Shown here one piece after another: positions 6,001 through 30,344 of a DNA stretch of 64,000 nt. The stretch is from contig OZ024746.1 in the NCBI GenBank assembly GCA_964016885.1, positions 50,282,001-50,346,000 on the forward strand, written 5' to 3'. Origin of the DNA: Eledone cirrhosa. Its lineage: Eukaryota. Position 1 is the first letter of the stretch. Every line of letters begins with the position of its first letter. A model generated the notes under the pieces. It was not told the origin of the DNA. It ran no database searches and worked only from the letters and a program-made list of their open reading frames with translations. The position numbers were made by a program, and so were the translations under genes.

Positions 6001-9000
6001 TAAAAAGATTAATGCTTTCGAAATATTTACTTCTGCTTTTTCGTTAAAATTTTGCGAAATATTTACTTCTGCATTTTCGTTAAAAAGTCATATTTTTACA
6101 TCTTTCGAAATATTTAAAAAAATCAAATTGTAAATTGATTTTATTGCATTTTACGATTTACTTCTGCTTTTACTCTTTTTTACGTTTTTCTGTTGAAAGT
6201 CAATCTGCGTTTTCAAATTGCATTTTTCGAAATATTAACTTCTCATTTCGAAAATTGATTTTTTCAGGTTTTTCTAAAAAGAATAAATATGAGTCGAAAT
6301 ATATACTTCTGCATTAATCTTTTTACCTTTTTCGTAAGACTGTTTTTTTTTGCATGTTTAGAAACCGGTCGGTGAAATCAATTTTTGAACACAAAATGGT
6401 TACTTTTCGACCTGTTGTAAAAAAGTGTAAAAAGATTAATTCTTTCGAAATATTTACTTCTGCTTTTTCGTTAAAATTTTGCGAAATATTTACTTCTGCT
6501 TTTTCGTTAAGAAGTCATATTTTTACATCTTTCTAAATATTTAAAAAATCAAATTGTAAATTGATCTTATTGCATTTTACGATTTACTTCTGCTTTTTCG
6601 AAATATTAGCTTCTGTTTTCGAAAATTGATTTTTTTAGGTTTTTCCAAAAAGAATAAATATGAGTCGAAATATATACTTCTGCATTAATCTTTTTACCTT
6701 TTTCGTAAGACTGGTTTTTTTGCATGTTTTGAAACCAGTCGGTGAAATCAATTTTTGAACACAAAATGGTTACTTTTCGACCTGTTGTAAAAAAGTGTAC
6801 AAAGATTAATGCCTTCGAAATATTTACTTCTGCTTTTTCGTTAAAAAGTCATATTTTTACATCTTTCGAAATATTTAAAAAAATCAGATTGTAAATTGAT
6901 TTTATTGCATTTTACGATTTACTTCTGCTTTTACTTTTTTTACGTTTTTCTGTTAAAAGTCAATCTGCGTTTTCAAATTGCATTTTTCGAAATATTAACT
7001 TCTGATTTCGAAAATTGATTTTTTTAGGTTTTTCCAAAAAGAATAAATATGAGTCGAAATATATACTTCTGCATTAATCTTTTTACGTTTTTCGTAAGAC
7101 TGATTTTTTTGCATGTTTCGAAATATTTAACACCAGTCGGTGAAATCAATTTTTGAACACTAAATGGTTACTTTTCGACCTGTTGTAAAAAAGTGTAAAA
7201 AGATTAATGCTTTCGAAATATTTACTTCTGCTTTTTCGTTAATATTTTGCGAAATATTTACTTCTGCTTTTTCATTAAAAAGTCATATTTTTACATCTTT
7301 CGAAATATTTAAAAAAATCAAATTGTACATTGATTTTATTGCATTTTACGATTTACTTCTGCTTTTACTTTTTTTACGTTTTTCTGTTAAAAGTCAATCT
7401 GCGTTTTCAAATTGCATTTTTCGAAATATTAACTTCTGATTTCGAAAATTGATTTTTTTAGGTTTTTCCAAAAGAATAAATATGAGTCGCTGCATTAATC
7501 TTTTTACGTTTTTCGTAAGACTGATTTTTTTGCATGTTTCTAAATATTTAACACCAGTCGGTGAAATCAATTTTTGAACACAAAATGGTTACTTTTCGAA
7601 CTGTTGTAAAAAAGTGTAAAAAGATTAATGCTTTCGAAATATTTACTTCTGCTTTTTCGTTAAAATTTTGCGAAATATTTACTTCTGCTTTTTCGTTGAA
7701 AAGTCATATTTTTACATCTTTCGAAATATTTACAAAAATCAAATTGTGAATTGATTTTATTGCATTTTACGATTTACTTCTGCTTTTACTTTTTTTACGT
7801 TTTTCTGTTAAAAGTCAATCTGCGTTTTCAAATTGCATTTTTCGAAATATTAACTTCTGATTTCGAAAATTGATTTTTTTAGGTTTTTCCAAAAAGAATA
7901 AATATGAGTCGAAATATATACTTCTGCATTAATCTTTTTACGTTTTTATATCTTTCGAAATATTAAAAAAAATCAAATTGTGAATTGATTTTTTGCATTT
8001 TACGATTTACTTCTGCTTTTACCTTTTTTACGTTTTTCTGTTAAAAGACTGGTTTTTTTGCATGTTTCGAAACCAGTCGGTGAAATCAATTTTTGAACAC
8101 AAAATGGTTACTTTTCGACCTGTTGTAAAAAAGTATGAAAAGATTAATTCTTTCGAAATATTTACTTCTGCTTTTTCGTTAAAATTTTGCGAAATATTTA
8201 CTTCTGCTTTTTCGGTAAAATTTTGCGAAATATTTACTTCTGCTTTTTCGTTAAAATTTTGCGAAATATTTACTTCTGCTTTTTAGTTAAAATTCATATT
8301 TTTACATCTTTCGAAACATTTAAAAAAATCAAATTGTAAATTGACTTTATTGCATTTTACGATTTATTTCTGCTTTTTCGAAATATTAACTTCTATTTTC
8401 GAAAATTGATTTTTTTAGGTTTTTCCAAAAAGAATAAATATGAGTCGAAATATATACTTGTGCATTAATCTTTTTACGTTTTTCGTAAGACTGATTTTTT
8501 TGCATGTTTCGAAATATTTAACACCAGTCGGTGAAATCAATTTTTGAACACAAAATCGTTACTTTTGGACCTGTTGTAAAAAAGTGTAAAGAAATTAATG
8601 CTTTCACAAATCTTTCGAAATATTTACTTCTGCTTTTTCGTTAAAATTTTGCGAAATATTTACTTCTGCTTTTTCGTTAAAAAGTCATATTTTTACATCT
8701 TTCTAAATATTTAAAAAAATCAAATTGTATATTGATTTTATTGCATTTTACGATTTACTTCTGCTTTTTCGAAATATTAACTTCTGTTTTCGAAAATTGA
8801 TTTTTTTAGGTTTTTCCAAAAAGAATAAATATGAGTCGAAATATATACTTCTGCATTAATCTTTTTACCTTTTTCGTAAGACTGTTTTTTTTGCATGTTT
8901 CGAAACCAGTCGGTGAAATCAATTTTTGAACACAAAATGGTTACTTTTCGACCTGTTGTAAAAAGTATACAAAGATTAATGCTTTCGAAATATTTACTTC

Positions 9001-12000
9001 TGCTTTTTCGTTAAAAAGTCATATTTTTACATCTTTTGAAATATTTAAAAAAATCAAATTGTAAATTGATTTTATTGCATTTTACGATTTACTTCTGCTT
9101 TTACTTTTTTTACGTTTTTCTGTTAAAAGTCAATCTGCGTTTTCAAATTGCATTTTTCGAAATATTAACTTCTGATTTCAAAAATTGATTTTTTTTTAGG
9201 TTTTTTCAAAAAGAATAAATATGAGTCGAAATATATACTTCTGCATTAATCTTTTTACGTTTTTATATCTTTCGAAATATTTAAAAAAATCAAATTGTAA
9301 ATTGTTTTTATTGCATTTTACGATTTACTTCTGCTTTTACTTTTTTTTACGTTTTTCTGTTAAAAGACTGGTTTTTTTGCATGTTTCGATACCAGTCGGT
9401 GAAATCAATTTTTGAACACAAAATGGTTACTTTTCGACCTGTTGTAAAAAAGTGTAAAAAGATTAATGCTTTCGAAATATTTACTTCTGCTTTTTCGTTA
9501 AAATTTTGCGAAATATTTACTTCTGCTTTTTCGTTTAAAAGTCATATTTTTACATCTTTCGAAATATTTAAAAAAATCAAATTGTAAATTGATTTCATTG
9601 CATTTTACGATTTACTTCTGCTTTTACTTTTTTTACGTTTTTCTGTTAAAAGTCAATCTGCGTTTTCAAATTGCATTTTTCGAAATATTAACTTCTGATT
9701 TCGAAAATTGATTTTTTTAGGTTTTTCCAAAAGAATAAATATGAGTCGCTTCATTAATCTTTTTACGTTTTTCGTAAGACTGATTTTTTTGCATGTTTCG
9801 AAATATTTAACACCAGTCGGTGAAATCAATTTTTGAACACAAAATGGTTACTTTTCGACCTGTTGTAAAAAAGTGTATAAAAATTAATGCTTTCACAAAT
9901 CTTTCGAAATACTTACTTCTGCTTTTTTCTTAAAATTTTGCGAAATTACTTCTGCTTTTTCGTTAAGAAGTCATATTTTAATACATCTTTCGAAATATTT
10001 AAAAAAATCAGATTGTAAATTGATTTTATTGCATTTTACGATTTACTTCTGCTTTTACTTTTTTTACGTTTTTCTGTTAAAAGTCAATCTGCGTTTTCAA
10101 ATTGCATTTTTCGAAATATTAACTTCTGTTTTCGAAAATTGATTTTTTTAGGTTTTTCCAAAAAGAATAAATATGAGTCGAAATATATACTTCTGCATTA
10201 ATCTTTTTAACTTTTTCGTAAGACTGGTTTTTTTGCATGTTTCAAAACCAGTCGGTGAAATCAATTTTTGAACACAAAATGGTTACTTTTCGACCTGTTG
10301 TAAAAAAGTGTAAAAAGATTAATGCTTTCGAAATATTTACTTCTGCTTTTTCGTTAAAAAGTCATATTTTTACATCTTTCGAAATATTTAAAAAAATCAA
10401 ATTGTACATTGATTTTATTGCATTTTACGATTTACTTCTGCTTTTACTTTTTTTACGTTTTTCTGTTAAAAGTCAATCTGCGTTTTCAAATTGCATTTTT
10501 CGAAATATTAACTTCTGATTTCGAAAATTGATTTTTTTAGGTTTTTCCAAAAGAATAAATATGAGTCGCTGCATTAATCTTTTTACGTTTTTCGTAAGAC
10601 TGATTTTTTGCATGTTTCGAAATATTTAACACCAGTCGGTGAAATCAAGTTTTGAACACAAAATGGTTACTGTTCGACCTGTTGTAAAAAAGTGTAAAAA
10701 GATTAATGCTTTCGAAATATTTACTTCTGCTTTTTCGTTAAAATTTTGCGAAATATTTACTTCTGCTTTTTCGTTAAAAAGTCATATTTTTACATCTTTC
10801 GAAATATTAAAAAAAATCAAATTGTAAATTGATTTTATTGCATTTTACGATTTACTTCTGCTTTTACTCTTTTTTACGTTTTTCTGTTGAAAGTCAATCT
10901 GCGTTTTCAAATTGCATTTTTCGAAATATTAACTTCTCATTTCGAAAATTGATTTTTTCAGGTTTTTCTAAAAAGAATAAATATGAGTCGAAATATATAC
11001 TTCTGCATTAATCTTTTTACCTTTTTCGTAAGACTGTTTTTTTTTGCATGTTTAGAAACCGGTCGGTGAAATCAATTTTTGAACACAAAATGGTTACTTT
11101 TCGACCTGTTGTAAAAAAGTGTAAAAAGATTAATTCTTTCGAAATATTTACTTCTGCTTTTTCGTTAAAATTTTGCGAAATATTTACTTCTGCTTTTTCG
11201 TTAAGAAGTCATATTTTTACATCTTTCTAAATATTTAAAAAATCAAATTGTAAATTGATCTTATTGCATTTTACGATTTACTTCTGCTTTTTCGAAATAT
11301 TAGCTTCTGTTTTCGAAAATTGATTTTTTAAGGTTTTTCCAAAAAGAATAAATATGAGTCGAAATATATACTTCTGCATTAATCTTTTTACCTTTTTCGT
11401 AAGACTGGTTTTTTTGCATGTTTTGAAACCAGTCGGTGAAATCAATTTTTGAACACAAAATGGTTACTTTTCGACCTGTTGTAAAAAAGTGTACAAAGAT
11501 TAATGCCTTCGAAATATTTACTTCTGCTTTTTCGTTAAAAAGTCATATTTTTACATCTTTCGAAATATTTAAAAAAATCAGATTGTAAATTGATTTTATT
11601 GCATTTTACGATTTACTTCTGCTTTTACTTTTTTTACGTTTTTCTGTTAAAAGTCAATCTGCGTTTTCAAATTGCATTTTTCGAAATATTAACTTCTGAT
11701 TTCGAAAATTGATTTTTTTAGGTTTTTCCAAAAAGAATAAATATGAGTCGAAATATATACTTCTGCATTAATCTTTTTACGTTTTTCGTAAGACTGATTT
11801 TTTTGCATGTTTCGAAATATTTAACACCAGTCGGTGAAATCAATTTTTGAACACTAAATGGTTACTTTTCGACCTGTTGTAAAAAAGTGTAAAAAGATTA
11901 ATGCTTTCGAAATATTTACTTCTGCTTTTTCGTTAATATTTTGCGAAATATTTACTTCTGCTTTTTCATTAAAAAGTCATATTTTTACATCTTTCGAAAT

Positions 12001-15000
12001 ATTTAAAAAAATCAAATTGTACATTGATTTTATTGCATTTTACGATTTACTTCTGCTTTTACTTTTTTTACGTTTTTCTGTTAAAAGTCAATCTGCGTTT
12101 TCAAATTGCATTTTTCGAAATATTAACTTCTGATTTCGAAAATTGATTTTTTTAGGTTTTTCCAAAAGAATAAATATGAGTCGCTGCATTAATCTTTTTA
12201 CGTTTTTCGTAAGACTGATTTTTTTGCATGTTTCTAAATATTTAACACCAGTCGGTGAAATCAATTTTTGAACACAAAATGGTTACTTTTCGAACTGTTG
12301 TAAAAAAGTGTAAAAAGATTAATGCTTTCGAAATATTTACTTCTGCTTTTTCGTTAAAAATTTGCGAAATATTTACTTCTGCTTTTTCGTTGAAAAGTCA
12401 TATTTTTACATCTTTCGAAATATTTACAAAAATCAAATTGTGAATTGATTTTATTGCATTTTACGATTTACTTCTGCTTTTACTTTTTTTACGTTTTTCT
12501 GTTAAAAGTCAATCTGCGTTTTCAAATTGCATTTTTCGAAATATTAACTTCTGATTTCGAAAATTGATTTTTTTAGGTTTTTCCAAAAAGAATAAATATG
12601 AGTCGAAATATATACTTCTGCATTAATCTTTTTACGTTTTTATATCTTTCGAAATATTAAAAAAAATCAAATTGTGAATTGATTTTTTGCATTTTACGAT
12701 TTACTTCTGCTTTTACCTTTTTTACGTTTTTCTGTTAAAAGACTGGTTTTTTTGCATGTTTCGAAACCAGTCGGTGAAATCAATTTTTGAACACAAAATG
12801 GTTACTTTTCGACCTGTTGTAAAAAAGTATGAAAAGATTAATTCTTTCGAAATATTTACTTCTGCTTTTTCGTTAAAATTTTGCGAAATATTTACTTCTG
12901 CTTTTTCGGTAAAATTTTGCGAAATATTTACTTCTGCTTTTTCGTTAAAATTTTGCGAAATATTTACTTCTGCTTTTTAGTTAAAATTCATATTTTTACA
13001 TCTTTCGAAACATTTAAAAAAATCAAATTGTAAATTGACTTTATTGCATTTTACGATTTATTTCTGCTTTTTCGAAATATTAACTTCTGTTTTCGAAAAT
13101 TGATTTTTTTAGGTTTTTCCAAAAAGAATAAATATGAGTCGAAATATATACTTGTGCATTAATCTTTTTACGTTTTTCGTAAGACTGATTTTTTTGCATG
13201 TTTCGAAATATTTAACACCAGTCGGTGAAATCAATTTTTGAACACAAAATCGTTACTTTTGGACCTGTTGTAAAAAAGTGTAAAGAAATTAATGCTTTCA
13301 CAAATCTTTCGAAATATTTACTTCTGCTTTTTCGTTAAAATTTTGCGAAATATTTACTTCTGCTTTTTCGTTAAAAAGTCATATTTTTACATCTTTCTAA
13401 ATATTTAAAAAAATCAAATTGTATATTGATTTTATTGCATTTTACGATTTACTTCTGCTTTTTCGAAATATTAACTTCTGTTTTCGAAAATTGATTTTTT
13501 TAGGTTTTTCCAAAAAGAATAAATATGAGTCGAAATATATACTTCTGCATTAATCTTTTTACCTTTTTCGTAAGACTGTTTTTTTTGCATGTTTCGAAAC
13601 CAGTCGGTGAAATCAATTTTTGAACACAAAATGGTTACTTTTCGACCTGTTGTAAAAAGTATACAAAGATTAATGCTTTCGAAATATTTACTTCTGCTTT
13701 TTCGTTAAAAAGTCATATTTTTACATCTTTTGAAATATTTAAAAAAATCAAATTGTACATTGATTTTATTGCATTTTACGATTTACTTCTGCTTTTACTT
13801 TTTTTACGTTTTTCTGTTAAAAGTCAATCTGCGTTTTCAAATTGCATTTTTCGAAATATTAACTTCTGATTTCAAAAATTGATTTTTTTTTAGGTTTTTT
13901 CAAAAAGAATAAATATGAGTCGAAATATATACTTCTGCATTAATCTTTTTACGTTTTTATATCTTTCGAAATATTTAAAAAAATCAAATTGTAAATTGTT
14001 TTTATTGCATTTTACGATTTACTTCTGCTTTTACTTTTTTTTACGTTTTTCTGTTAAAAGACTGGTTTTTTTGCATGTTTCGATACCAGTCGGTGAAATC
14101 AATTTTTGAACACAAAATGGTTACTTTTCGACCTGTTGTAAAAAAGTGTAAAAAGATTAATGCTTTCGAAATATTTACTTCTGCTTTTTCGTTAAAATTT
14201 TGCGAAATATTTACTTCTGCTTTTTCGTTTAAAAGTCATATTTTTACATCTTTCGAAATATTTAAAAAAATCAAATTGTAAATTGATTTCATTGCATTTT
14301 ACGATTTACTTCTGCTTTTACTTTTTTTACGTTTTTCTGTTAAAAGTCAATCTGCGTTTTCAAATTGCATTTTTCGAAATATTAACTTCTGATTTCGAAA
14401 ATTGATTTTTTTAGGTTTTTCCAAAAGAATAAATATGAGTCGCTGCATTAATCTGTTTACGTTTTTCGTAAGACTGATTTTTTTGCATGTTTCGAAATAT
14501 TTAACACCAGTCGGTGAAATCAATTTTTGAACACAAAATGGTTACTTTTCGACCTGTTGTAAAAAAGTGTATAAAAATTAATGCTTTCACAAATCTTTCG
14601 AAATACTTACTTCTGCTTTTTTCTTAAAATTTTGCGAAATTACTTCTGCTTTTTCGTTAAGAAGTCATATTTTAATACATCTTTCGAAATATTTAAAAAA
14701 ATCAGATTGTAAATTGATTTTATTGCATTTTACGATTTACTTCTGCTTTTACTTTTTTTACGTTTTTCTGTTAAAAGTCAATCTGCGTTTTCAAATTGCA
14801 TTTTTCGAAATATTAACTTCTGTTTTCGAAAATTGATTTTTTTAGGTTTTTCCAAAAAGAATAAATATGAGTCGAAATATATACTTCTGCATTAATCTTT
14901 TTAACTTTTTCGTAAGACTGGTTTTTTTGCATGTTTCAAAACCAGTCGGTGAAATCAATTTTTGAACACAAAATGGTTACTTTTCGACCTGTTGTAAAAA

Positions 15001-15332
15001 AGTGTAAAAAGATTAATGCTTTCGAAATATTTACTTCTGCTTTTTCGTTAAAAAGTCATATTTTTACATCTTTCGAAATATTTAAAAAAATCAAATTGTA
15101 CATTGATTTTATTGCATTTTACGATTTACTTCTGCTTTTACTTTTTTTACGTTTTTCTGTTAAAAGTCAATCTGCGTTTTCAAATTGCATTTTTCGAAAT
15201 ATTAACTTCTGATTTCGAAAATTGATTTTTTTAGGTTTTTCCAAAAGAATAAATATGAGTCGCTGCATTAATCTTTTTACGTTTTTCGTAAGACTGATTT
15301 TTTGCATGTTTCGAAATATTTAACACCAGTCG
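74..15332. repeat. 11-monomer higher-order repeat of satellite A (4,622-4,694 bp unit; 3 full copies plus a partial fourth)
   Basis: Identical ORF translations recur at fixed offsets: 921, 5543, 10237, 14931 (4622, 4694, 4694) and 4687, 9381, 14075 (4694). There are 11 anchor motifs per period, and the order of monomer-specific indels is conserved. Confidence 0.95.
8154..8294. repeat. Internal 36-bp subrepeat (CGAAATATTTACTTCTGCTTTTTCGTTAAAATTTTG) at 4 copies; 1-2 copies in most A monomers
   Basis: Copies start at 8154, 8190, 8226 and 8262. The same 4-copy state occurs at ~12848-12988. The homologous monomer of HOR copy 1 (~3532-3600) has only 2 copies. Confidence 0.95.
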
Positions 15333-18300
15333 GTGAAATCAATTTTTGAACACAAAATGGTTACTTTTCGACCTGTTGTAAAAAAGTGTAAAAAGATTAA
15401 TGCTTTCGAAATATTTACTTCTGCTTTGTCGTTAAAATTTTGCGAAATATTTACTTCTGCTTTTTCGTTAAAAAGTCATATTTTTACATCTTTCGAAATA
15501 TTTAAAAAAATCAAATTGTAAATTGATTTTATTGCATTTTACGATTTACTTCTGCTTTAACTTTTTTTACGTTTTTCTGTTAGAAGTCAATCTGCGTTTT
15601 CAAATTGAATTTTTCGAAATATTAACTTCTTATTTCGAAAATTGATTTTTTTAGGTTTTTCCAAAAGAATAAATATGAGTCGCTGCATTAATCTTTTTAC
15701 GTTTTTCGTAAGACTGATTTTTTGCATGTTTCGAAATATTTAACACCAGTCGGTGAAATCAAGTTTTGAACACAAAATGGTTACTGTTCGACCTGTTGTA
15801 AAAAAGTGTAAAAAGATTAATGCTTTCGAAATATTTACTTCTGCTTTGTCGTTAAAATTTTGCGAAATATTTACTTCTGCTTTTTCGTTAAAAAGTCATA
15901 TTTTTACATCTTTCGAAATATTTAAAAAAATCAAATTGTAAATTGATTTTATTGCATTTTACGATTTTCTTCTGCTTTTACTTTTTTTACGTTTTTCTGT
16001 TAAAAGTCAATCTGCGTTTTCAAATTGAATTTTTCGAAATATTAACTTCTGATTTCGAAAATTGATTTTTTTAGGTTTTTCCAAAAGAATAAATATGAGT
16101 CGCTGCATTAATCTTTTTACGTTTTTCGTAAGACTGATTTTTTTGCATGTTTCGAAATATTTAACACCAGTCGGTGAAATCAATTTTTGAACACAAAATG
16201 GTTACTTTTCGAACTGTTGTAAAAAAGTGTAAAAAGATTAATGCTTTCGAAATATTTACTTCTGCTTTTTCGTTAAAATTTTGCAAAATATTTACTTCTG
16301 CTTTTTCGTTAAAAAGTCATATTTTTACATCTTTCGAAATATTTACAATAATCAAATTGTGAATTGATTTTATTGCATTTTACGATTTACTTCTGCTTTT
16401 ACTTTTTTTACGTTTTTCTGTTAAAAGTCAATCTGCGTTTTCAAATTGCATTTTTCGAAATATTAACTTCTGTTTTCGAAAATTGATTTTTTTAGGTTTT
16501 TCCAAAAAGAATAAATATGAGTCGAAATATATACTTCTGCATTAATCTTTTTAACTTTTTCGTAAGACTGGTTTTTTTGCATGTTTCAAAACCAGTCGGT
16601 GAAATCAATTTTTGAACACAAAATGGTTACTTTTCGACCTGTTGTAAAAAAGTGTAAAAAGATTAATGCTTTCGAAATATTTACTTCTGCTTTTTCGTTA
16701 AAAAGTCATATTTTTACATCTTTCGAAATATTTAAAAAAATCAAATTGTACATTGATTTTATTGCATTTTACGATTTACTTCTGCTTTTACTTTTTTTAC
16801 GTTTTTCTGTTAAAAGTCAATCTGCGTTTTCAAATTGCATTTTTCGAAATATTAACTTCTGATTTCGAAAATTGATTTTTTTAGGTTTTTCCAAAAGAAT
16901 AAATATGAGTCGCTGCATTAATCTTTTTACGTTTTTCGTAAGACTGATTTTTTGCATGTTTCGAAATATTTAACACCAGTCGGTGAAATCAATTTTTGAA
17001 CACAAAATGGTTACTTTTCGACCTGTTGTAAAAAAGTGTAAAAAGATTAATGCTTTCGAAATATTTACTTCTGCTTTGTCGTTAAAATTTTGCGAAATAT
17101 TTACTTCTGCTTTTTCGTTAAAAAGTCATATTTTTACATCTTTCGAAATATTTAAAAAAATCAAATTGTAAATTGATTTTATTGCATTTTACGATTTACT
17201 TCTGCTTTAACTTTTTTTACGTTTTTCTGTTAGAAGTCAATCTGCGTTTTCAAATTGAATTTTTCGAAATATTAACTTCTTATTTCGAAAATTGATTTTT
17301 TTAGGTTTTTCCAAAAGAATAAATATGAGTCGCTGCATTAATCTTTTTACGTTTTTCGTAAGACTGATTTTTTTGCATGTTTCGAAATATTTAACACCAG
17401 TCGGTGAAATCAATTTTTGAACACAAAATGGTTACTTTTCGACCTGTTGTAAAAAAGTGTAAAAAGATTAATGCTTTCGAAATATTTACTTCTGCTTTTT
17501 CGTTAAAATTTTGCGAAATATTTACTTCTGCTTTTTCGTTAAAAAGTCATATTTTTACATCTTTCGAAATATTTAAAAAAATCAAATTGTACATTGATTT
17601 TATTGCATTTTACGATTTACTTCTGCTTTTACTTTTTTTACGTTTTTCTGTTAAAAGTCAATCTGCGTTTTCAAATTGCATTTTTCGAAATATTAACTTC
17701 TGATTTCGAAAATTGATTTTTTTAGGTTTTTCCAAAAGAATAAATATGAGTCGCTGCATTAATCTTTTTACGTTTTTCGTAAGACTGATTTTTTGCATGT
17801 TTCGAAATATTTAACACCAGTCGGTGAAATCAAGTTTTGAACACAAAATAGTTACTGTTCGACCTGTTGTAAAAAAGTGTAAAAAGATTAATGCTTTCGA
17901 AATATTTACTTCTGCTTTGTCGTTAAAATTTTGCGAAATATTTACTTCTGCTTTTTCGTTAAAAAGTCATATTTTTACATCTTTCGAAATATTTAAAAAA
18001 ATCAAATTGTAAATTGATTTTATTGCATTTTACGATTTACTTCTGCTTTTACTTTTTTTACGTTTTTCTGTTAAAAGTCAATCTGCGTTTTCAAATTGAA
18101 TTTTTCGAAATATTAACTTCTGATTTCGAAAATTGATTTTTTTAGGTTTTTCCAAAAGAATAAATATGAGTCGCTGCATTAATCTTTTTACGTTTTTCGT
18201 AAGACTGATTTTTTTGCATGTTTCGAAATATTTAACACCAGTCGGTGAAATCAATTTTTGAACACAAAATGGTTACTTTTCGAACTGTTGTAAAAAAGTG

Positions 18301-20688
18301 TAAAAAGATTAATGCTTTCGAAATATTTACTTCTGCTTTTTCGTTAAAATTTTGCAAAATATTTACTTCTGCTTTTTCGTTAAAAAGTCATATTTTTACA
18401 TCTTTCGAAATATTTACAATAATCAAATTGTGAATTGATTTTATTGCATTTTACGATTTACTTCTGCTTTTACTTTTTTTACGTTTTTCTGTTAAAAGTC
18501 AATCTGCGTTTTCAAATTGCATTTTTCGAAATATTAACTTCTGATTTCGAAAATTGATTTTTTTTAGGTTTTTCCAAACGAATAAATATGAGTCGCTGCA
18601 TTAATCTTTTTACGTTTTTCGTAAGACTGATTTTTTTGCATGTTTCGAAATAATTAACACCAGTCGGTGAAATCAATTTTTGAACACAAAATGTTTACTT
18701 TTCGACCTGTTGTAGAAAAGTGTAAAAAAATTAATGCTTTCACAAATCTTTCGAAATACTTACTTCTGCTTTTTTCTTAAAATTTTGCGAAATATTTACT
18801 TCTGCTTTTTCGTTAAAAAGTCATATTTTTACATCTTCCGAAATATTTAAAAAAATCAAATTGTACATTGATTTTATTGCATTTTACGATTTACTTCTGC
18901 TTTTACTTTTTTTACGTTTTTCTGTTAAAAGTCAATCTGCGTTTTCAAATTGCATTTTTCGAAATATTAACTTCTGATTTCGAAAATTGATTTTTTTAGG
19001 TTTTTCCAAAAGAATAAATATGAGTCGCTGCATTAATCTTTTTACGTTTTTCGTAAGACTGATTTTTTGCATGTTTCGAAATATTTAACACCAGTCGGTG
19101 AAATCAATTTTTGAACACAAAATGGTTACTTTTCGACCTGTTGTAAAAAAGTGTAAAAAGATTAATGCTTTCGAAATATTTACTTCTGCTTTGTCGTTAA
19201 AATTTTGCGAAATATTTACTTCTGCTTTTTCGTTAAAAAGTCATATTTTTACATCTTTCGAAATATTTAAAAAAATCAAATTGTAAATTGATTTTATTGC
19301 ATTTTACGATTTACTTCTGCTTTAACTTTTTTTACGTTTTTCTGTTAGAAGTCAATCTGCGTTTTCAAATTGAATTTTTCGAAATATTAACTTCTTATTT
19401 CGAAAATTGATTTTTTTAGGTTTTTCCAAAAGAATAAATATGAGTCGCTGCATTAATCTTTTTACGTTTTTCGTAAGACTGATTTTTTTGCATGTTTCGA
19501 AATATTTAACACCAGTCGGTGAAATCAATTTTTGAACACAAAATGGTTACTTTTCGACCTGTTGTAAAAAAGTGTAAAAAGATTAATGCTTTCGAAATAT
19601 TTACTTCTGCTTTTTCGTTAAAATTTTGCGAAATATTTACTTCTGCTTTTTCGTTAAAAAGTCATATTTTTACATCTTTCGAAATATTTAAAAAAATCAA
19701 ATTGTACATTGATTTTATTGCATTTTACGATTTACTTCTGCTTTTACTTTTTTTACGTTTTTCTGTTAAAAGTCAATCTGCGTTTTCAAATTGCATTTTT
19801 CGAAATATTAACTTCTGATTTCGAAAATTGATTTTTTTAGGTTTTTCCAAAAGAATAAATATGAGTCGCTGCATTAATCTTTTTACGTTTTTCGTAAGAC
19901 TGATTTTTTGCATGTTTCGAAATATTTAACACCAGTCGGTGAAATCAAGTTTTGAACACAAAATGGTTACTGTTCGACCTGTTGTAAAAAAGTGTAAAAA
20001 GATTAATGCTTTCGAAATATTTACTTCTGCTTTGTCGTTAAAATTTTGCGAAATATTTACTTCTGCTTTTTCGTTAAAAAGTCATATTTTTACATCTTTC
20101 GAAATATTTAAAAAAATCAAATTGTAAATTGATTTTATTGCATTTTACGATTTACTTCTGCTTTTACTTTTTTTACGTTTTTCTGTTAAAAGTCAATCTG
20201 CGTTTTCAAATTGAATTTTTCGAAATATTAACTTCTGATTTCGAAAATTGATTTTTTTAGGTTTTTCCAAAAGAATAAATATGAGTCGCTGCATTAATCT
20301 TTTTACGTTTTTCGTAAGACTGATTTTTTTGCATGTTTCGAAATATTTAACACCAGTCGGTGAAATCAATTTTTGAACACAAAATGGTTACTTTTCGAAC
20401 TGTTGTAAAAAAGTGTAAAAAGATTAATGCTTTCGAAATATTTACTTCTGCTTTTTCGTTAAAATTTTGCAAAATATTTACTTCTGCTTTTTCGTTAAAA
20501 AGTCATATTTTTACATCTTTCGAAATATTTACAATAATCAAATTGTGAATTGATTTTATTGCATTTTACGATTTACTTCTGCTTTTACTTTTTTTACGTT
20601 TTTCTGTTAAAAGTCAATCTGCGTTTTCAAATTGCATTTTTCGAAATATTAACTTCTGATTTCGAAAATTGATCTTTTTAGGTTTTTC
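14931..20688. repeat. Border sub-array of satellite A with a 1,650-bp 4-mer followed by 2,115-bp 5-mer units
   Basis: Offset 14931 to 16581 is 1650. Offsets 16983 to 19098, 17404 to 19519, 17824 to 19939 and 18245 to 20360 are all 2115. Diagnostic variants not seen in the 11-mer include GCTTTGTCG, TGTTAGAAGTC, AAATTGAATTTTTCG and TTACAATAATC. Confidence 0.92.
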
Positions 20689-20757
20689 ACAAATTGATCA
20701 ATTTGTGCAAAACCGAAAAAAATCAATTTTAGAAATCAGAAGTAAATATTTCGAAAA
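20638..20757. other. 120-bp spacerless imperfect palindrome spanning the satellite A/B junction
   Basis: 20638-20697 matches the reverse complement of 20698-20757 at 55/60 positions (manual alignment), centred on TGA|TCA. Confidence 0.92.
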
Positions 20758-20894
20758 GTATAAAAAAATTGATTATTTTAGGTTTTTCACAAAATGATCA
20801 ATTTGTGAAAAACCGAAAAAAATCAATTTTAGATATCAGAAGTAAATATTTCGAAATGTATAAAAAAATTGATTATTTTAGGTTTTTCACAAAT
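20695..20894. repeat. Two tandem 100-bp satellite B deletion-derivative units at the start of the B array
   Basis: TGATCA starts at 20695, 20795 and 20895. Each unit is TGATCAATTTGTG...GGTTTTTCACAAA(A/T) and lacks the 196 bp normally found between the two TGATCA sites. Confidence 0.93.
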
Positions 20895-23800
20895 TGATCA
20901 TTTTACACAGTATTTCGAAAAATTGTTTTTTTTCAAAAAAGATTGATTTTTTTTCTTTCGAAATGTATACTTTCTCATTTCGAAAATTGATATATATTTT
21001 GTAGTTTTCAAAAATTTTTCAACGTGTCGAAACACGATGTATAAACGCATTTTTTTTAAAAAAAACATTTTTTCCAAATACTGTGTAAAATGATCAATTT
21101 GTGCAAAACCGAAAAAAATCAATTTTAGAAATCAGAAGTAAATATTTCGAAAAGTATAAAAAAATTGATTATTTTAGGTTTTTCACAAAATGATCAATTT
21201 GTGAAAAACCGAAAAAAAATCAATTTTAGAAATCAAAAGTAAATATTTCGAAATGTATAAAAAAATTGATTATTTTAGGTTTTTCACAAATTGATCATTT
21301 TACACAGTATTTCGAAAAATTGTTTTTTTTCAAAAAAGATTGATTTTTTTTCTTTCGAAATGTATACTTTCTCATTTCGAAAATTGATATATATTTTGTA
21401 GTTTTCAAAAATTTTTCAACGAGTCGAGACAAAACGCATTTTTTTGAAAAAAAACATTTTTTCCAAATATTGTGTAAAGTGATCAATTTGTGAAAAACCT
21501 AAAAAGATCAATTTTAGATATCAGAAGTAAATATTTCGAAATGTATAAAAAAATTGATTATTTTAGGTTTTTCACAAATTGATCATTTTACACAGTATTT
21601 CGAAAAATTGTTTTTTTTCAAAAGAGATTGATTTTTTTTCAGAAAAGTTTGATTTATTTTCGATTTCGAAAATTGATATATATTATGTATTTTTCAAAAA
21701 TTTTTCAACGTGTCGAAACACGATGTATAAACGCATTTTTTTGAAAAAAAAACATTTTTTCTAAAAATGATCAATTTGTGAAAAACCGAAAAAAATCAAT
21801 TTTAGAAATCAGAAGTAAATACTTCGAAAAGTATAAAAAAATTGATTATTTTAGGTTTTTCACAAATTGATCATTTTACACAGTATTTCGAAAAATTGTT
21901 TTTTTTCAAAAAAGATTGATTTTTTTTCTTTCGAGATATATACTTTCTGATTTCGAAATGTTTAAAAAAATTGATTATTTTAGGTTTTTCACACATTGAT
22001 CATTTTACACAGTATTTCGAAAAATTGTTTTTTTTTCGATTTCGAAAATTGATATGTATTTTGTATTTTTCAAAAATTTTTCAACGTGTCGAAACACGAT
22101 GAATAAACGCATTTTTTTGAAAAAAAACATTTTATCCAAATATTGTGTAAAGTGATCAATTTATGAAAAACCTAAAAAAATCAATTTTAGATACCAGAAG
22201 TAAATATTTCGAAATGTATAAAAAAATTGATTATTTTAGGTTTTTCACAAATTGATCATTTTACACAGTATTTCGAAAAATTGTTTTTTTTCAGAAAAGT
22301 TTGATTTATTTTCGATTTCGAAAATTGATATATATTTTGTATTTTTCAAAAATTTTTCAACGTGTCGAAACACGATGTATAAACGCATTATTTTGAAAAA
22401 AAACATTTTTTCCAAATACTGTGTAAAATGATCAATTTGTGAAAAACCGAAAAAAATCAATTTTAGAAATCAGAAGTAAATATTTCGAAATGTATAAAAA
22501 AATTGATTATTTTAGGTTTTTCACAAATTGATCATTTTACACAGTATTTCGAAAAATTGTTTTTTTTCAAAAAAGATTGATTTTTTTTCTTTCGAAATGT
22601 ATACTTTCTGATTTCGAAAATTGATATATATTTTGTATTTTTCAAAAATTTTTCAACGTGTCGAGATACGATGAATAAACGCATTTTTTTGAAAAAAAAC
22701 ATCTTTTCCAAATACTTTGTAAAATGATCAATTTGTGAAAAACCGAAAAAAATCAATTTTAGAAATCAGAAGTAAATATTTCGAAATGTATAAAAAAATT
22801 GATTATTTTAGGTTTTTCACAAAATGATCAATTTGTGAAAAACCGAAAAAAATCAATTTTAGAAATCAGAAGTAAATATTTCGAAATGTATAAAAAAATT
22901 GATTATTTTAGGTTTTTCACAAATTGATCATTTTACACAGTATTTCGAAAAATTGTTTTTTTTCAAAAAAGTTTGATTTTTTTTCTTTCGAAATGTATAC
23001 TTTCTGATTTCGAAAATTGATATATATTTTGTATTTTTCAAAAATTTTTCAACGTGTCGAAACACGATGTATAAACGCATTTTTTTTAAAAAAAACATTT
23101 TTTCCAAATACTTTGTAAAATGATCGATTTGTGTAAAAACCCCAAAAAATCAATTTTAGATATCAGAAGTAAATATTTCGAAATGTATAAAAAAATTGAT
23201 TATTTTAGGTTTTTCACAAATTGATCATTTTACACAGTATTTCGAAAAATTGTTTTTTTTCAAAAAAGTGATTTTTTTTCGATTTCGAAAATTGATATGT
23301 ATTTTGTATTTTTCAAAAATTTTTCAACGTGTCGAAACACGATTAATAAACGCATTATTTTGAAAAAAAACATTTTTTCCAAATATTGTGTAAAGTGATC
23401 AATTTGTGAAAAACCGAAAAAAATCAATTTTAGAAATCAGAAGTAAATATTTCGAAATGTATAAAAAAATTGATTATTTTAGGTTTTTCACAAAATGATC
23501 AATTTGTGAAAAACCGAAAAAAATCAATTTTAGAAATCAGAAGTAAATATTTCGAAATGTATAAAAAAATTGATTATTTTAGGTTTTTCACAAATTGATC
23601 ATTTTACACAGTATTTCGAAAAATTTTTTTTTTTCAGAAAAGTTTGATTTATTTTCGATTTCGAGAATTGATATATATTTTGTATATTTCAAAAATTTTT
23701 CAACGTGTCGAAACACAATGTATAAACGCATTTTTTTAAAAAAAAACATTTTTTCTAAATATTGTGTAAAGTGATCGATTTGTGAAAAACCCAAAAAAAT

Positions 23801-26800
23801 CAATTTTAGATATCAGAAGTAAATATTTCGAAATGTATAAAAAAATTGATTATTTTAGGTTTTTCACAAATTGATCATTTTACACAGTATTTCGAAAAAT
23901 TGTTTTTTTTCAAAAAAGTTTGATTTTTTTTCGATTTCGAAAATTGATATATATTTTGTATTTTTCAAAAATTTTTCAACGTGTCGAAACACAATGTAAA
24001 AACGCATATTTTTGAAAAAAAACATTTTTTCCAAATACTGTGTAAAATGATCAATTTGTGAAAAACCTAAAAATATCAATTTTAGATACCAGAACTAAAT
24101 ATTTCGAAATGTATAAAAAAATTGATTATTTTAGGTTTTTCACAAATTGATCATTTTACACAGTATTTCGAAAAATTGTTTTTTTTCAGAAAAGATTGAT
24201 CTTTTTTCTTTCGAAATATATACTTTCTGATTTCGAAAATTGATATATATTTTGTATTTTTCAAAAATTTTTCAACGTGTCGAAACAATGTATAAACGCA
24301 TTTTTTTAAAAAAAAACATTTTTTCCAAATACTTTGTAAAATGATCGATTTGTGAAAAACCCCAAAAAATCAATTTTAGATATCAGAAGTAAATATTTCG
24401 AAATGTATAAAAAAATTGATTATTTTAGGTTTTTCACAAATTGATCATTTTACACAGTATTTCGAAAAATTGTTTTTTTTCAAAAAAGTGATTTTTTTTC
24501 GATTTCGAAAATTGATATGTATTTTGTATTTTTCAAAAGTTTTTCAACGTGTCGAAACACAACGTATAAACGCATTTTTTAAAAAAAAAACATTTTTTCT
24601 AAATATTGTGTAAAGGTGAAAAACCTAAAAAAATCAATTTTAGAAATCAGAAGTAAATATTTTGAAATGTATAAAAATATTGATTATTTTAGGTTTTTCA
24701 CAAATTGATCATTTTACACAGTATCTCGAAAAATTGTTTTTTTCAAAAAAGATTGATTTTTTTTCTTTCGAAATATATACTTTCTGATTTCGAAAATTGA
24801 TATATATTTTGTATTTTTCAAAAATTTTTCAACGTCTCGAAACACGATGTATAAACGCATTTTTTTGAAAAAAAACATTTTTTCCAAATACTGTGTAAAA
24901 TGATCAATTTGTGCAAAACCGAAAAAAATCAATTTTAGAAATCAGAAGTAAATATTTCGAAATGTATAAAAAATTGATTATTTTAGGTTTTTCACAAATT
25001 GATCATTTTACACAGTATTTCGAAAAATTGTTTTTTTTCAAAAAAGATTGATTTTTTTTCTTTCGAAATGTATACTTTCTGATTTCGAAAATTGATATAT
25101 ATTTTGTATTTTTCAAAAATTTTTCAACGTGTCGAGATACGATGAATAAACGCATTTTTTTGAAAAAAAACATCTTTTCCAAATGCTTTGTAAAATGATC
25201 AATTTGTGAAAAACCGAAAAAAATCAATTTTAGAAATCAGAAGTAAATATTTCGAAATGTATAAAAAAATTGATTATTTTAGGTTTTTCACAAAATGATC
25301 AATTTGTGAAAAAAGTTTTCACAAATTGATCATTTTACACAGTATTTCGAAAAATTGTTTTTTTTCAAAAAAGTGATTTTTTTTTCGATTTCGAAAATTG
25401 ATATGTATTTTGTATTTTTCAAAAATTTTTCAACGTGTCGAAACACAACGTATAAACGCATTTTTTTAAAAAAAAACATTTTTTCCAAATACTGTGTAAA
25501 ATGATCAATTTGTGAAAAACCGAAAAAAATCAATTTTAGAAATCAGAAGTAAATATTTTGAAATGTATAAAAATATTGATCATTTTACACAGTATCTCGA
25601 AAAATTGTTTTTTTCAAAAAAGATTGATTTTTTTTCTTTCGAAATATATTCTTTCTGATTTCGAAAATTGATATATATTTTGTATTTTTCAAAAATTTTG
25701 CGTGTCGAAACACGATGTATAAACGCATTTTTTTGAAAAAAAAACTTTTTTTCTAAAAATGATCAATTTGTGAAAAACCGAAAAAAATCAATTTTAGAAA
25801 TCAGAAGTAAATATTTCGAAATGTATAAAAAAATTGATTATTTTAGGTTTTTCACAAATTGATCATTTTACACAGTATTTCGAAAAATTGTTTTTTTTCC
25901 AAAAAGTTTGATTTTTTTTCGATTTCGAAAATTGATATATATTTTGTATTTTTCAAAAATTTTTCAACGTGTCGAAACACGATGTATAAACGCATTTTTT
26001 AAAAAAAAAAACATTTTTTCTAAAAATGATCAATTTGTGAAAAACCGAAAAAAAATCAATTTTAGAAATCAGAAGTAAATACTTCGAAAAGTATAAAAAA
26101 ATTGATTATTTTAGGTTTTTCACAAATTGATCATTTTACACAGTATTTCGAAAAATTGTTTTTTTTCAAAAAAGATTGATTTTTTTTCTTTCGAAATATA
26201 TACTTTCTGATTTCGAAAATTGATATATATTTTGTATTTTTCAAAAATTTTTCAACGTGTCGAAACACGATGTATAAACGCATTTTTTTTTAAAAAAAAT
26301 TTTTTGTAAATATTGTGTAAAGTGATCGATTTGTGAAAAACCTAAAAAAATCAATTTTAGATATCAGAAGTAAATATTTCGAAATGTATAAAAAAATTGA
26401 TTATTTTAGGTTTTTCACAAATTGATCATTTTACACAGTATTTCGAAAAATTGTTTTTTTTCAAAAAAGTGATTTTTTTTCGATTTCGAAAATTGATATG
26501 TATTTTGTATTTTTCAAAAATTTTTCAACGTGTCTAAACACGATGAATAAACGCATTTTTTTGAAAAAAAACATTTTTTCCAAATATTGCGTAAAGTGAT
26601 CAATTTATGAAAAACCTAAAAAAATCAATTTTAGATACCAGAAGTAAATATTTCGAAATGTATAAAAAAATTGATTATTTTAGGTTTTTCACAAATTGAT
26701 CATTTTACACAGTATTTCGAAAAATTGTTTTTATTCAAAAAAGATTGATTTTTTTTCTTTCGAAATATATACTTTCTGATTTCGAAAATTGATATATATT

Positions 26801-29800
26801 TTGTATTTTTCAAAAATTTTTCAACGTGTCGAAACACGATGTATAAACGCATTTTTTTTAAAAAAAACATTTTTTCCAAATACTGTGTAAAATGATCAAT
26901 TTGTGCAAAACCGAAAAAAATCAATTTTAGAAATCAGAAGTAAATATTTCGAAAAGTATAAAAAAATTGATTATTTTAGGTTTTTCACAAAATGATCAAT
27001 TTGTGAAAAACCGAAAAAAAATCAATTTTAGAAATCAAAAGTAAATATTTCGAAATGTATAAAAAAATTGATTATTTTAGGTTTTTCACAAATTGATCAT
27101 TTTACACAGTATTTCGAAAAATTGTTTTTTTTCAAAAAAGATTGATTTTTTTTCTTTCGAAATGTATACTTTCTCATTTCGAAAATTGATATATATTTTG
27201 TAGTTTTCAAAAATTTTTCAACGAGTCGAGACAAAACGCATTTTTTTGAAAAAAAACATTTTTTCCAAATATTGTGTAAAGTGATCAATTTGTGAAAAAC
27301 CTAAAAAGATCAATTTTAGATATCAGAAGTAAATATTTCGAAATGTATAAAAAAATTGATTATTTTAGGTTTTTCACAAATTGATCATTTTACACAGTAT
27401 TTCGAAAAATTGTTTTTTTTCAAAAAAGATTGATTTTTTTTCTTTCGAAATGTATACTTTCTGATATCGAAAATTGATATATATTTTGTATTTTTCAAAA
27501 ATTTTTCAACGTGTCGAAACACGATGTATAAACGCATTTTTTTTAAAAAAAACATTTTTTCCAAATACTGTGTAAAATGATCAATTTGTGCAAAACCGAA
27601 AAAAATCAATTTTAGAAATCAGAAGTAAATATTTCGAAATGTATAAAAAATTGATTATTTTAGGTTTTTCACAAATTGATCATTTTACACAGTATTTCGA
27701 AAAATTGTTTTTTTTCAGAAAAGTTTGATTTATTTTCGATTTCGAAAATTGATATATATTTTGTATTTTTCAAAAATTTTTCAACGTGTCGAAACACAAT
27801 GTATAAACGCATTTTTTAAAAAAAAAACATTTTTCTAAATATTGTGTAAAGTGATCGATTTGTGAAAAACCCCAAAAAATCAATTTTAGATATCAGAAGT
27901 AAATATTTCGAAATATATAAAAAAATTGATTATTTTAGGTTTTTCACAAATTGATCATTTTACACAGTATTTCGAAAAATTGTTTTTTTACAAAAAAGTT
28001 TGATTTTTTTTCGATTTCGAAAATTGATATATATTTTGTACTTTTCAAAAATTTTTCAACGTGTCGAAACACAATGTAAAAACGCATATTTTTGAAAAAA
28101 AACATTTTTTCCAAATACTGTGTAAAATGGTCAATTTGTGAAAAACCGAAAAAAATCAATTTTAGAAATCAGAAGTAAATATTTTGAAATGTATAAAAAA
28201 ATTGATTATTTTAGGTTTTTCACAAATTGATCATTTTACACAGTATTTCGAAAAATTGTTTTTTTTCAAAAAAGTGATTTTTTTTCGATTTCGAAAATTG
28301 ATATGTATTTTGTATTTTTCAAAAATTTTTCAACGTGTCGAAACACGATGAATAAACGCATTATTTTGAAAAAAAACATTTTTTCCAAATATTGTGTAAA
28401 GTGATCAATTTGTGAAAAACCTAAAAATATCAATTTTAGATACCAGAACTAAATATTTCGAAATGTATAAAAAAATTGATTATTTTAGGTTTTTCACAAA
28501 TTGATCATTTTACACAGTATTTCGAAAAATTGTTTTTTTTCAAAAAAGATTGATTTTTTTTCTTTCGAAATGTATACTTTCTGATTTCGAAAATTGATAT
28601 ATATTTTGTATTTTTCAAAAGTTTTTCAACGTGTCGAGATACGATGAATAAACGCATTTTTTTGAAAAAAAACATTTTTTCCAAATACTTTGTAAAATGA
28701 TCGATTTGTGAAAAACCCCAAAAAATCAATTTTAGATATCAGAAGTAAATATTTCGAAATGTATAAAAAAATTGATTATTTTAGGTTTTTCACAAATTGA
28801 TCATTTTACACAGTATTTCGAAAAATTGTTTTTTTTCAAAAAAGTGATTTTTTTTCGATTTCGAAAATGGATATGTATTTTGTAAAATTGTTTTTTTTCA
28901 GAAAAGATTGATTTTTTTTCTTTCGAAATATATACTTTCTGATTTCGAAAATTGATATATATTTTGTATTTTTCAAAAATTTTTCAACGAGTCGAAACAC
29001 AATGTATAAACGCATTTTTTTTAAAAAAAACATTTTTTCCAAATATTGTGTGAAGTGATCAATTTGTGAAAAACCTAAAAATATCAATTTTAGATACCTG
29101 AACTAAATATTTCGAAATGTATAAAAAAATTGATTATTTTAGGTTTTTCACAAATTGATCATTTTACACAGTATTTCGAAAAATTGTTTTTTTTCAGAAA
29201 AGATTGATTTTTTTTTCTTTCGAAATATATACTTTCTGATTTCAAAAATTGATATATATTTTGTATTTTTCAAAAATTTTTCAACGTGTCGAAACACAAT
29301 GAATAAACGCATTTTTTTTTAAAAAAACATTTTTTCCAAATACTTTGTAAAATGATCGATTTGTGAAAAACCCCAAAAAATCAATTTTAGATATCAGAAG
29401 TAAATATTTCGAAATGTATAAAAAAATTGATTATTTTAGGTTTTTCACAAATTGATCATTTTACACAGTATTTCGAAAAATTGTTTTTTATCAAAAAAGT
29501 GATTTTTTTTCGATTTCGAAAATTGATATGTATTTTGTATTTTTCAAAAATTTTTCAACGTGTCGAAACACAACGTATAAACGCATTTTTTAAAAAAAAA
29601 ACATTTTTTCTAAATATTGTGTAAAGGTGAAAAACCTAAAAAAATCAATTTTAGATATCAGAAGTAAATATTTCGAAATGTATAAAAAAATTGATTATTT
29701 TAGGTTTTTCACAAATTGATCATTTTACACAGTATTTCGAAAAATTGTTTTTTTTCAAAAAAGATTGATTTTTTTTCTTTCGAAATGTATACTTTCTGAT

Positions 29801-30082
29801 TTCGAAAATTGATATATATTTTGTATTTTTCAAAAATTTTTCAACGTGTCGAGATACGATGAATAAACGCATTTTTTTGAAAAAAAACATCTTTTCCAAA
29901 TGCTTTGTAAAATGATCAATTTGTGAAAAACCGAAAAAAATCAATTTTAGAAATCAGAAGTAAATATTTCGAAATGTATAAAAAAATTGATTATTTTAGG
30001 TTTTTCACAAAATGATCAATTTGTGAAAAACCGAAAAAAATCAATTTTAGAAATCAGAAGTAAATATTTCGAAATGTATAAA

Positions 30083-30344
30083 AAAATTGATTATTTTAGG
30101 TTTTTCACAAATTGATCATTTTACACAGTATTTCGAAAAATTGTTTTTTTTCAAAAAAGATTGATTTTTTTTCTTTCGAAATGTATACTTTCTGATTTCG
30201 AAAATTGATATATATTTTGTATTTTTCAAAAATTTTTCAACGTGTCGAAACACGATGTATAAACGCATTTTTTTGAAAAAAAACATTTTTTCCAAATACT
30301 GTGTAAAATGATCAATTTGTGCAAAACCGAAAAAAATCAATTTT
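30083..30344. repeat. Representative satellite B monomer with 76-bp inverted arms (30083-30158 and 30269-30344), a 110-bp inner loop and a 33-bp outer spacer
   Basis: Left arm AAAATTGATTATTTTAGGTTTTTCACAAATTGATCATTTTACACAGTATTTCGAAAAATTGTTTTTTTTCAAAAAA matches the reverse complement of the right arm at 71/76 positions. 76+110+76+33 = 295. Confidence 0.95.

What the first reader, a model, noticed from the sequence alone, without database searches (positions are those of the whole stretch)
20638..20757. The A/B junction falls in a 24-bp shared sequence inside a 120-bp spacerless palindrome
Seen: A reads AAAATTGATTTTTTTAGGTTTTTC|CAAAAG and B reads AAAATTGATTATTTTAGGTTTTTC|ACAAAT. The junction (20665-20688) reads AAAATTGATCTTTTTAGGTTTTTC|ACAAAT, a clean in-register switch with no filler DNA and one private substitution. 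The last 60 bp before TGA|TCA are the reverse complement of the next 60 bp (55/60), a longer spacerless palindrome than I found inside either array. Inference: the arrays were joined by recombination or template switching through the shared box, possibly via a fold-back intermediate. Abrupt, base-resolved satellite-satellite junctions record how arrays arise.
Basis: partly seen in the sequence, partly recalled or inferred. Interest (0 to 1): 0.75.

Follow-up and report, generated by a model that had tools for sequence, protein, structure and literature searches.

The report
Fold-back scar joining sister satellites
The 120-base mirror-image join between two repeat arrays is real, but most of it comes from a 55-base module that the two related repeats share in opposite directions, plus a 21-base reversed patch likely copied from a nearby repeat unit during DNA repair, so it is likely a one-off scar of a known kind rather than a new element.

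Summary
The palindrome at 20638-20757 is real (55/60, no spacer; longest in the 275-kb block). The 'private' C is not private, and the switch is not filler-free. Satellite A runs exactly to 20673 and satellite B starts at 20695. The 21 bases between match only B's opposite strand: 20665-20700 is the exact reverse complement of a rare B arm variant (6 of 904 arms). All six copies are tied to the block that opens B here; the nearest is 785 bases away. The best reading is A | short inverted copy of a nearby B arm | B, likely made by fold-back synthesis through 6- and 9-base microhomologies. Any ordinary A unit already pairs 47/51 with the right arm, because A, B and a third family share one module. 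Related arrays on other contigs hold longer fold-back palindromes (69/70, 70/73), and their two inter-family joins do not use the 24-base box. The join is single-copy, and public reads neither confirmed nor refuted it. The scan had noted an AT-rich candidate-centromere family elsewhere in this genome, probably this one (unchecked), but nothing on this join. Verdict: ordinary kind, cleanly resolved, modest interest.

The parts
1..20673 (+). Satellite A array (monomer about 421 bp; begins outside the window at G000:C6:50272560, about 30 kb in all), last monomer complete and in register
20638..20673 (+). A-derived part of the left arm: the shared ~55-bp module, 91% like B's reverse arm
20665..20673 (+). 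9-bp overlap shared by A and the inverted patch (first switch point, inferred)
   Evidence: A exact to 20673, B-minus exact from 20665
20674..20694 (-). 21-bp patch found exactly only on B's minus strand; carries the C at 20674
20695..20700 (.). Self-complementary hexamer TGATCA, centre of the palindrome and overlap between patch and B (second switch point, inferred primer)
20698..20757 (+). Right arm of the palindrome: an ordinary B reverse arm; 20695-20814 is identical to six other B blocks
20695..64000 (+). Satellite B array (monomers mostly 264-296 bp, with 100-107 bp short units; runs on to G000:C6:50547158, about 244 kb)
20765..20830 (.). Ordinary 66-bp spacerless palindrome of B's 100-bp short unit (30/33); 12 such in the window
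20865..21126 (.). B's built-in inverted repeat: 76-nt arms, 92% complementary, 110-nt loop
   Evidence: I2
21480..21515 (+). Nearest B reverse arm with the C variant: exact reverse complement of 20665-20700, likely template of the patch
27282..50572 (+). Four further copies of the same C-variant arm (27282, 33241, 40092, 50537), each 388-389 bp behind a copy of the block that opens B; a sixth lies outside the window

Best explanation
The join reads satellite A, then a 21-base piece that is the exact reverse complement of a nearby B unit, then satellite B, and it likely formed when a broken or stalled B end folded back, copied that unit and annealed to A. SHOWN: A ends at 20673, B starts at 20695, and 20665-20700 mirrors 21480-21515 exactly. 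INFERRED steps: (1) a 3' end on B's lower strand stopped at the self-complementary hexamer TGATCA; (2) it paired with the TGATCA of a B reverse arm 785 bases away on the same strand (388 bases if the first 396-bp block was duplicated later); (3) about 30 bases were synthesised on that template; (4) the new end, now carrying the module in A's orientation, annealed to A through 9 identical bases inside a 51-bp stretch about 90% alike; (5) the join was sealed. The same product follows if synthesis ran from A's end with two template switches. The 120-bp palindrome is then a by-product: 27 bp of each arm come from the module that A and B share by descent in opposite orientation, 33 bp from setting two B reverse arms head to head. 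No function is implied.
For: Exact-match mapping gives A to 20673, B plus from 20695, and a 36-nt match on B minus against 11-12 nt elsewhere. The C allele is absent from 64 A boxes and 892 B forward arms and present in 6 of 904 reverse arms. All six lie 388-389 bp behind the only six other copies of the exact 120 bp that open B at the join, and all six of those copies are preceded by loop sequence, not by a forward arm. An independent T>C is rare: 34 in 861 forward arms x 16 T sites, 4 in 64 A boxes x 14 T sites, i.e. 0.25-0.45% per site. My rough likelihood ratio over 'crossover plus mutation' is about 15-25 if the template was local and about 1 if it was any arm of the array (own estimate, no call). 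Short inversions recur in this family: 11 inverted patches of 8 kinds in this B array, 3 of them (at 2 places) clearly more than one base, and fold-back palindromes of 69/70, 70/73 and 36/36 on C10 and 40/40 on C8. The anatomy matches the primer / insertion / microhomology layout of snap-back SD-MMEJ (PMC5728401, introduction read) and of short fold-back inversions at yeast breaks (PMC11724301, section 15 read).
Against: The case for the template rests on one diagnostic base plus its linkage: bases 20676-20700 fit an ordinary B forward arm equally well. The loop of 388-785 nt is far longer than the 30 bp reported for SD-MMEJ primers or the 41-nt yeast loop. The direction of copying is not fixed: the C could have passed from the join into the arm at 21480 before that block was amplified. 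Five of the eight kinds of inverted patch in B could be single substitutions. No public read or contig was shown to span the join.
Confidence: 0.55

Rival explanations
1. Two separate steps: B first flipped orientation at TGATCA, giving a head-to-head B-/B+ point, or the C allele was carried between arms by hairpin-guided conversion. Later a crossover or deletion between A and the inverted B arm removed all but 21-36 bp of the inverted block.
For: B arrays do flip: strand switches on C8 and long fold-back palindromes on C10. A and B-minus are 91% alike over 55 bp in the same direction, a ready crossover substrate. Possible arm-to-arm conversions are seen in B.
Against: It needs two or three events for a product that one repair reaction gives. 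No other inverted B block survives at this locus. A true mirror would copy the adjacent arm, which differs at three bases from the patch.
Confidence: 0.15
2. One reading: one crossover between A's box and a B forward arm, plus loss of B's 110-nt loop by slippage at TGATCA (or use of a 100-bp short unit with a later A>T change), plus an independent T>C.
For: 20676-20700 equals a normal forward arm. Loop-less short units are common (52 in the array), and 27 of them are followed by an arm starting like the right arm here.
Against: Those 27 units all lie 127 kb or more from the join and none equals the join's right side (12-70 mismatches in 120 positions). The join's exact centre occurs nowhere else in the genome. 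The extra mutation would have to recreate the allele of the one variant linked to this very block.
Confidence: 0.15
3. Assembly or library artefact: a chimeric read joined A and B through shared sequence.
For: Single-copy join between two repeats. Three Logan contig sets of one sample and one RAD run gave no listed piece across 20664-20707.
Against: A plain mis-join would contain only A and B words, but the join has a 23-mer unique in the genome and a patch from a variant confined to this end of the array (5 of 6 copies within 30 kb). There is no gap from C6:50232001 to 50559987. A has no second array end elsewhere. The tool states that contig holes prove nothing, and those runs held at most 41% of the stretch's words.
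Confidence: 0.1
4. The hairpin is a selected structure, such as a cruciform boundary or protein-binding site between two chromatin domains, as proposed for conserved inversion and transition sites in Tribolium madens.
For: Strong predicted stem (-44.2 kcal/mol), of the size reported for T. madens inversion sites (58-98 bp stems; PMC13081366 passages). The family is rich in dyads and may be centromeric (inferred).
Against: One copy in the genome against thousands of conserved sites in T. madens. Five mismatches are left in the stem, and its length follows from the monomers.
Confidence: 0.05

Closest known systems
[quoted passage not shown]
   Same: Same layout: an inverted primer repeat (TGATCA), a templated insertion (21 bp), and a newly made microhomology (9 bp) to the other end; the insertion becomes part of a longer inverted repeat.
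   Different: Reported primers lie within about 30 bp of the break; here the template is 388-785 bp away. No break or polymerase can be shown for a germ-line scar.
Local fold-back inverted insertions at yeast double-strand breaks (PMC11724301; abstract and section 15 read)
   Same: Short (mostly 5-34 bp) inverted copy of sequence beside one end, primed by an imperfect 10-bp inverted repeat, then joined to the other end.
   Different: 41-nt loop and 0-5 bp of overlap at the second end in yeast; here a longer loop and 9 bp inside a 51-bp homeologous module. Induced break versus natural satellite.
Tribolium madens TmSat1/TmSat2 inversion sites and transition zones (PMC13081366; abstract and passages read)
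   Same: Two satellites from one progenitor unit, long dyads inside the monomer, sharp chimeric transitions without foreign DNA (TRANS_2, marked by a 6-nt motif), hairpin stems of 58-98 bp at inversion points.
   Different: There the sites are amplified to thousands of near-identical copies and the dyads span kilobases. Here the join is single, and the mirror is only 60 bp deep because the left array is a different family.
Mouse telomere - TLC - minor - major satellite order (PMC10880262; passages read)
   Same: Telomere-type repeat, then a small related satellite, then a larger one (TLC is 60-70% like minor satellite); rare direction switches (1.7-1.9% of arrays).
   Different: In mouse this is a true chromosome end with a proven centromere. 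Here the telomere-like array is degenerate and lies mid-contig, and no centromere protein data exist.

Membership tests
Snap-back SD-MMEJ / fold-back templated insertion | Insertion is an exact inverted copy of nearby sequence | tested here: met
   20665-20700 = reverse complement of 21480-21515, 36/36; only one base tells it from a forward arm plus A
Snap-back SD-MMEJ / fold-back templated insertion | Inverted primer repeat at one end of the insertion | tested here: met
   TGATCA at 20695-20700 and 21480-21485
Snap-back SD-MMEJ / fold-back templated insertion | Microhomology to the other partner at the far end | tested here: met
   9 bp, 20665-20673
Snap-back SD-MMEJ / fold-back templated insertion | Primer repeat within about 30-40 bp of the break | tested here: not met
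   785 bp now, 388 bp in the six sister blocks; so it works like SD-MMEJ but is not filed as such
Snap-back SD-MMEJ / fold-back templated insertion | Dependence on a break and on polymerase theta or delta | not testable with these tools
   historical germ-line event
Self fold-back palindrome (breakage-fusion-bridge type; features recalled) | Left arm is a mirror copy of the adjacent right arm and the mirror continues outward | tested here: not met
   arms differ at 5 of 60, the left arm's outer 27 bp are A-type, the mirror ends at 60 bp
Simple homologous crossover between related satellites | Every base explained by parent A then parent B plus strand | tested here: not met
   21-bp gap between the exact A and exact B-plus matches
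T. madens-type conserved transition/inversion site | Both satellites descend from one unit | tested here: met
   A vs B-minus 91% over 55 bp; A vs family C 92% over 87 bp; both A-like and B-like parts in one 1.35-kb island on C8
T. madens-type conserved transition/inversion site | The site is amplified and conserved in many copies | tested here: not met
   1 copy in the genome
Centromeric satellite (for the A/B/C family) | One main region per chromosome on most chromosomes | tested here: inconclusive
   Arrays seen on 5 contigs (C6, C7, C8, C10, C18); listings stop at 100 hits, so the rest of the genome was not mapped; C1-C5 and C9 gave no listed hit
Centromeric satellite (for the A/B/C family) | CENP-A binding or location at the primary constriction | not testable with these tools
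   needs ChIP/CUT&Tag or FISH

The most novel reading that the evidence does not exclude
A, B and C are the centromere-region satellite library of this (probably octopus-type) genome, all cut from one palindrome-rich progenitor that still survives unamplified as a 1.35-kb island between outward-facing telomere-like arrays on C8. The shared 55-bp module would drive fold-back repair, so that hairpin-primed template switching is the routine way these arrays flip, join and spawn new families; this join is a base-resolved record of one such step with its template still identifiable next door.
Probability: 0.25. Interest if true: 0.6.

Novelty: new member of a known kind. Interest (0 to 1): 0.3.

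Why it matters
On its own it is one repair scar. Its value is that the template of the patch can still be named, which is rare inside satellite DNA, and it points to fold-back synthesis over several hundred bases rather than a plain crossover as the way two sister arrays were joined. If the family proves centromeric, the set of such scars (C6, C8, C10) gives a direct test of whether dyad-rich satellites remodel themselves by hairpin-primed repair. My searches of the held library listed no paper on this family or on cephalopod centromeric satellites (listings only), but most subscription papers are not searched.

Tried and rejected
(1) Read support: the look-up of sequencing runs gave 7 runs, 4 holding 9-41% of the words. 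Two lays (X1-X4, then X2-X5) listed no piece spanning the centre, with 727 and 44 pieces not shown. A-type pieces were present at high depth in X2-X4, so A is real, but the join was neither shown nor excluded; I count this as inconclusive. (2) Other A/B joins: the join pattern gave 6 hits; five on C7 and C8 are B-internal variants. A has no second array. (3) Self fold-back of the right arm: rejected, three diagnostic bases differ. (5) Genome-wide map of the family by a rare shared variant: no suitable variant; held stretches explain 973 of 1881 hits of the B 30-mer. (6) Sequence and near look-ups of earlier findings returned nothing relevant. (7) PMC13652916 (cichlid centroids; abstract only): a different scale and structure, not used. 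One search timed out after printing the alignments used here; its second half was rerun. No supplements were read; those of PMC13081366 (Fig. S8, S10) could bear on how close TRANS_2 is to this join.

Full report
SETTING. The window is G000:C6:50282001-50346000 in a 3.0-Gb genome; C6 is 102.6 Mb long. Joining the neighbouring stretches gives this order: unique DNA; 26 kb of degenerate TTAGGG repeats ending near 50272559; satellite A (about 421-bp monomer, 30 kb); satellite B (264-296-bp monomers, 244 kb, to 50547158); unique DNA; a 200-N gap at 50559988. The flanking repeats looked like octopus DNA to me; that is recall, not a test.

THE OBSERVATION. The 60+60 palindrome is there, 55/60, no spacer. 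It is the best of 28 hairpins with a 0-1 nt spacer in the window and the best of 13 with loops up to 10 nt in the A+B block. It folds at -44.2 kcal/mol, against -25.7 for a B stretch and -13.6 for an A stretch of equal length. Its centre is unique in the genome.

WHY A PALINDROME IS EXPECTED. A's last 55 bp are 91% like B's minus strand and 81% like a second place on B's plus strand. Each B monomer carries a 76-nt inverted repeat, a 'forward' and a 'reverse' arm around a 110-nt loop. Short units that lost the loop give a 66-bp spacerless palindrome 12 times in the window and 52 times in the array. The previous, ordinary A monomer pairs with the join's right arm at 47/51, one better than the join itself. 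So 27 bp of each arm are inherited similarity. A third family, C, found through loose ends in public contigs and located on C10 and C18 (987 hits, 100 listed), is 92% like A over 87 bp. A 1.35-kb island at C8:31025670-31027010 holds A-like units and a longer form of B's arm cassette side by side. A, B and C are sister satellites.

WHAT THE JOIN IS MADE OF. Exact A sequence runs to 20673; exact plus-strand B runs back to 20695. Across 20674 the longest exact match is 11 nt in A, 12 nt in B plus and 36 nt in B minus (20665-20700). The C at 20674 is in 0 of 64 A boxes, 0 of 892 forward arms and 6 of 904 reverse arms of this array. It also occurs in 5 of 1013 box copies at the other loci held, none matching all 36 nt. 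The 120 bp that open B at 20695 have six identical copies, all preceded by loop sequence, and each is followed 388-389 bp later by one of the six C-variant arms. The nearest is at 21480, the fifth reverse arm after the join; 20695-21090 is a near-duplicate of the next block, so the distance may have been 388 bp when the join formed. The join therefore reads: A | 9-bp overlap | 21-bp inverted B patch | TGATCA overlap | B.

MECHANISM. Shown: the three parts, the overlaps, the exact mirror copy and its linkage. Inferred: a lower-strand B end at TGATCA folded back onto the TGATCA of the variant arm, about 30 bases were synthesised, and the new end annealed to A's module. This is the layout of snap-back SD-MMEJ (PMC5728401, abstract and introduction) and of short fold-back insertions in yeast (PMC11724301, abstract and section 15), but with a loop ten to twenty times longer than they report, so I say it works like these and do not file it under them. 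The weak point is that one base carries the argument, since 20676-20700 also equals a forward arm. The alternative needs a T>C whose per-site frequency is 0.25-0.45%, landing on the allele of the linked neighbour, and a loop loss seen nowhere else. The 27 loop-less units followed by a similar right arm are all 127 kb or more away and none is identical. My estimate of the odds is about 15-25 to 1 for a local template and even for a distant one (no call).

IS IT SPECIAL? No. The same family holds longer near-spacerless palindromes on C10 (69/70 and 70/73 with 4-nt loops, 45/46, and 36/36 with none) and C8 (40/40), while the C7, C18 and C10 B-array stretches scanned had none above the threshold. 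Within this B array there are 11 inverted patches of 8 kinds, three clearly multi-base. The two C/B joins on C10 overlap by 10 and 7 bp around TCGAAA and do not use the box. On C7, B does begin at the box directly after a CCCTAA array, a single case.

IS IT REAL? Not shown directly. Public contigs of one sample and one RAD run gave no listed spanning piece, which the tool says proves nothing. A mis-join is unlikely because the join holds words found in neither array and borrows from a variant confined to this end of B; I leave 10%.

KNOWN PARALLELS. Tribolium madens has two satellites from one ~110-bp unit with sharp chimeric transitions and hairpin-forming inversion sites, but in thousands of conserved copies (PMC13081366, abstract and passages). 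Mouse has the order telomere - small related satellite - larger satellite, with rare direction switches (PMC10880262, passages). Seven searches (listings) showed no paper on this family. Earlier AI notes on this genome call an AT-rich family a candidate centromere on 12 of 27 chromosome-sized sequences. My five loci, four with an assembly gap within 17 kb, are compatible with that, but I did not check that it is the same family or the count.

VERDICT. Observation partly confirmed; interpretation partly supported and corrected. A single fold-back-type scar between sister satellites, new member of a known kind, interest 0.3. The wider family is the more promising lead.

Noticed in passing
G000:C6:50246400-50272559 (L031-L034), directly left of satellite A: 26 kb of degenerate TTAGGG repeats, G-rich strand pointing into A, in the middle of a 102.6-Mb contig; no opposing CCCTAA arm.
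   Followed up: partly
G000:C8:31025670-31027010 (L111-L112): 1.35-kb AT-rich island with A-like units at both ends (about 280-bp inverted repeat, 82%), a 218-bp palindromic cassette that looks like a longer form of B's arms, and telomere-like arrays pointing outward on both sides; a possible unamplified progenitor of A and B.
   Followed up: partly
G000:C7:29460001-29519053 (L103-L108): At least 14 kb of CCCTAA repeats run straight into a B array that starts at the forward-arm box and ends at an assembly gap.
   Followed up: partly
G000:C10:37575500-37586400 (L085-L086): 11-kb block of family C with an embedded 1.4-kb B stretch, several strand flips and fold-back palindromes with 70-73-nt arms; a B array of at least 89 kb (probably about 230 kb) ends 26 kb to the left.
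   Followed up: partly
G000:C18:12846070 onward (L110): Array of family C (about 390-bp units) preceded by a G-rich, telomere-like repeat of another type; the same repeat type flanks the C8 island.
   Followed up: partly
C6 50.3 of 102.6 Mb; C7 29.5 of 94.0; C8 31.0-31.6 of 60.6; C10 37.3-37.6 of 55.3; C18 12.8 of 43.9: The A/B/C family sits at one internal region on each of five contigs, four with a 200-N gap within 17 kb: a candidate centromere-region satellite; rest of the genome not mapped.
   Followed up: partly
window 1-14500: Satellite A has a higher-order repeat of about 4.6-4.7 kb (11 monomers) that gives way to plain 420-bp monomers in the last 6 kb before the join.
   Followed up: no
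window 37172-37257; G000:C6:50357056-50357127 and 50405370-50405443: Single loop-deletion hairpin (38/40 arms) and two local inversions with small fold-back patches inside the B array.
   Followed up: partly
L028 (G000:C6:51000001-51002000): An unrelated GC-rich tandem repeat of about 60 bp, 450 kb right of B.
   Followed up: no
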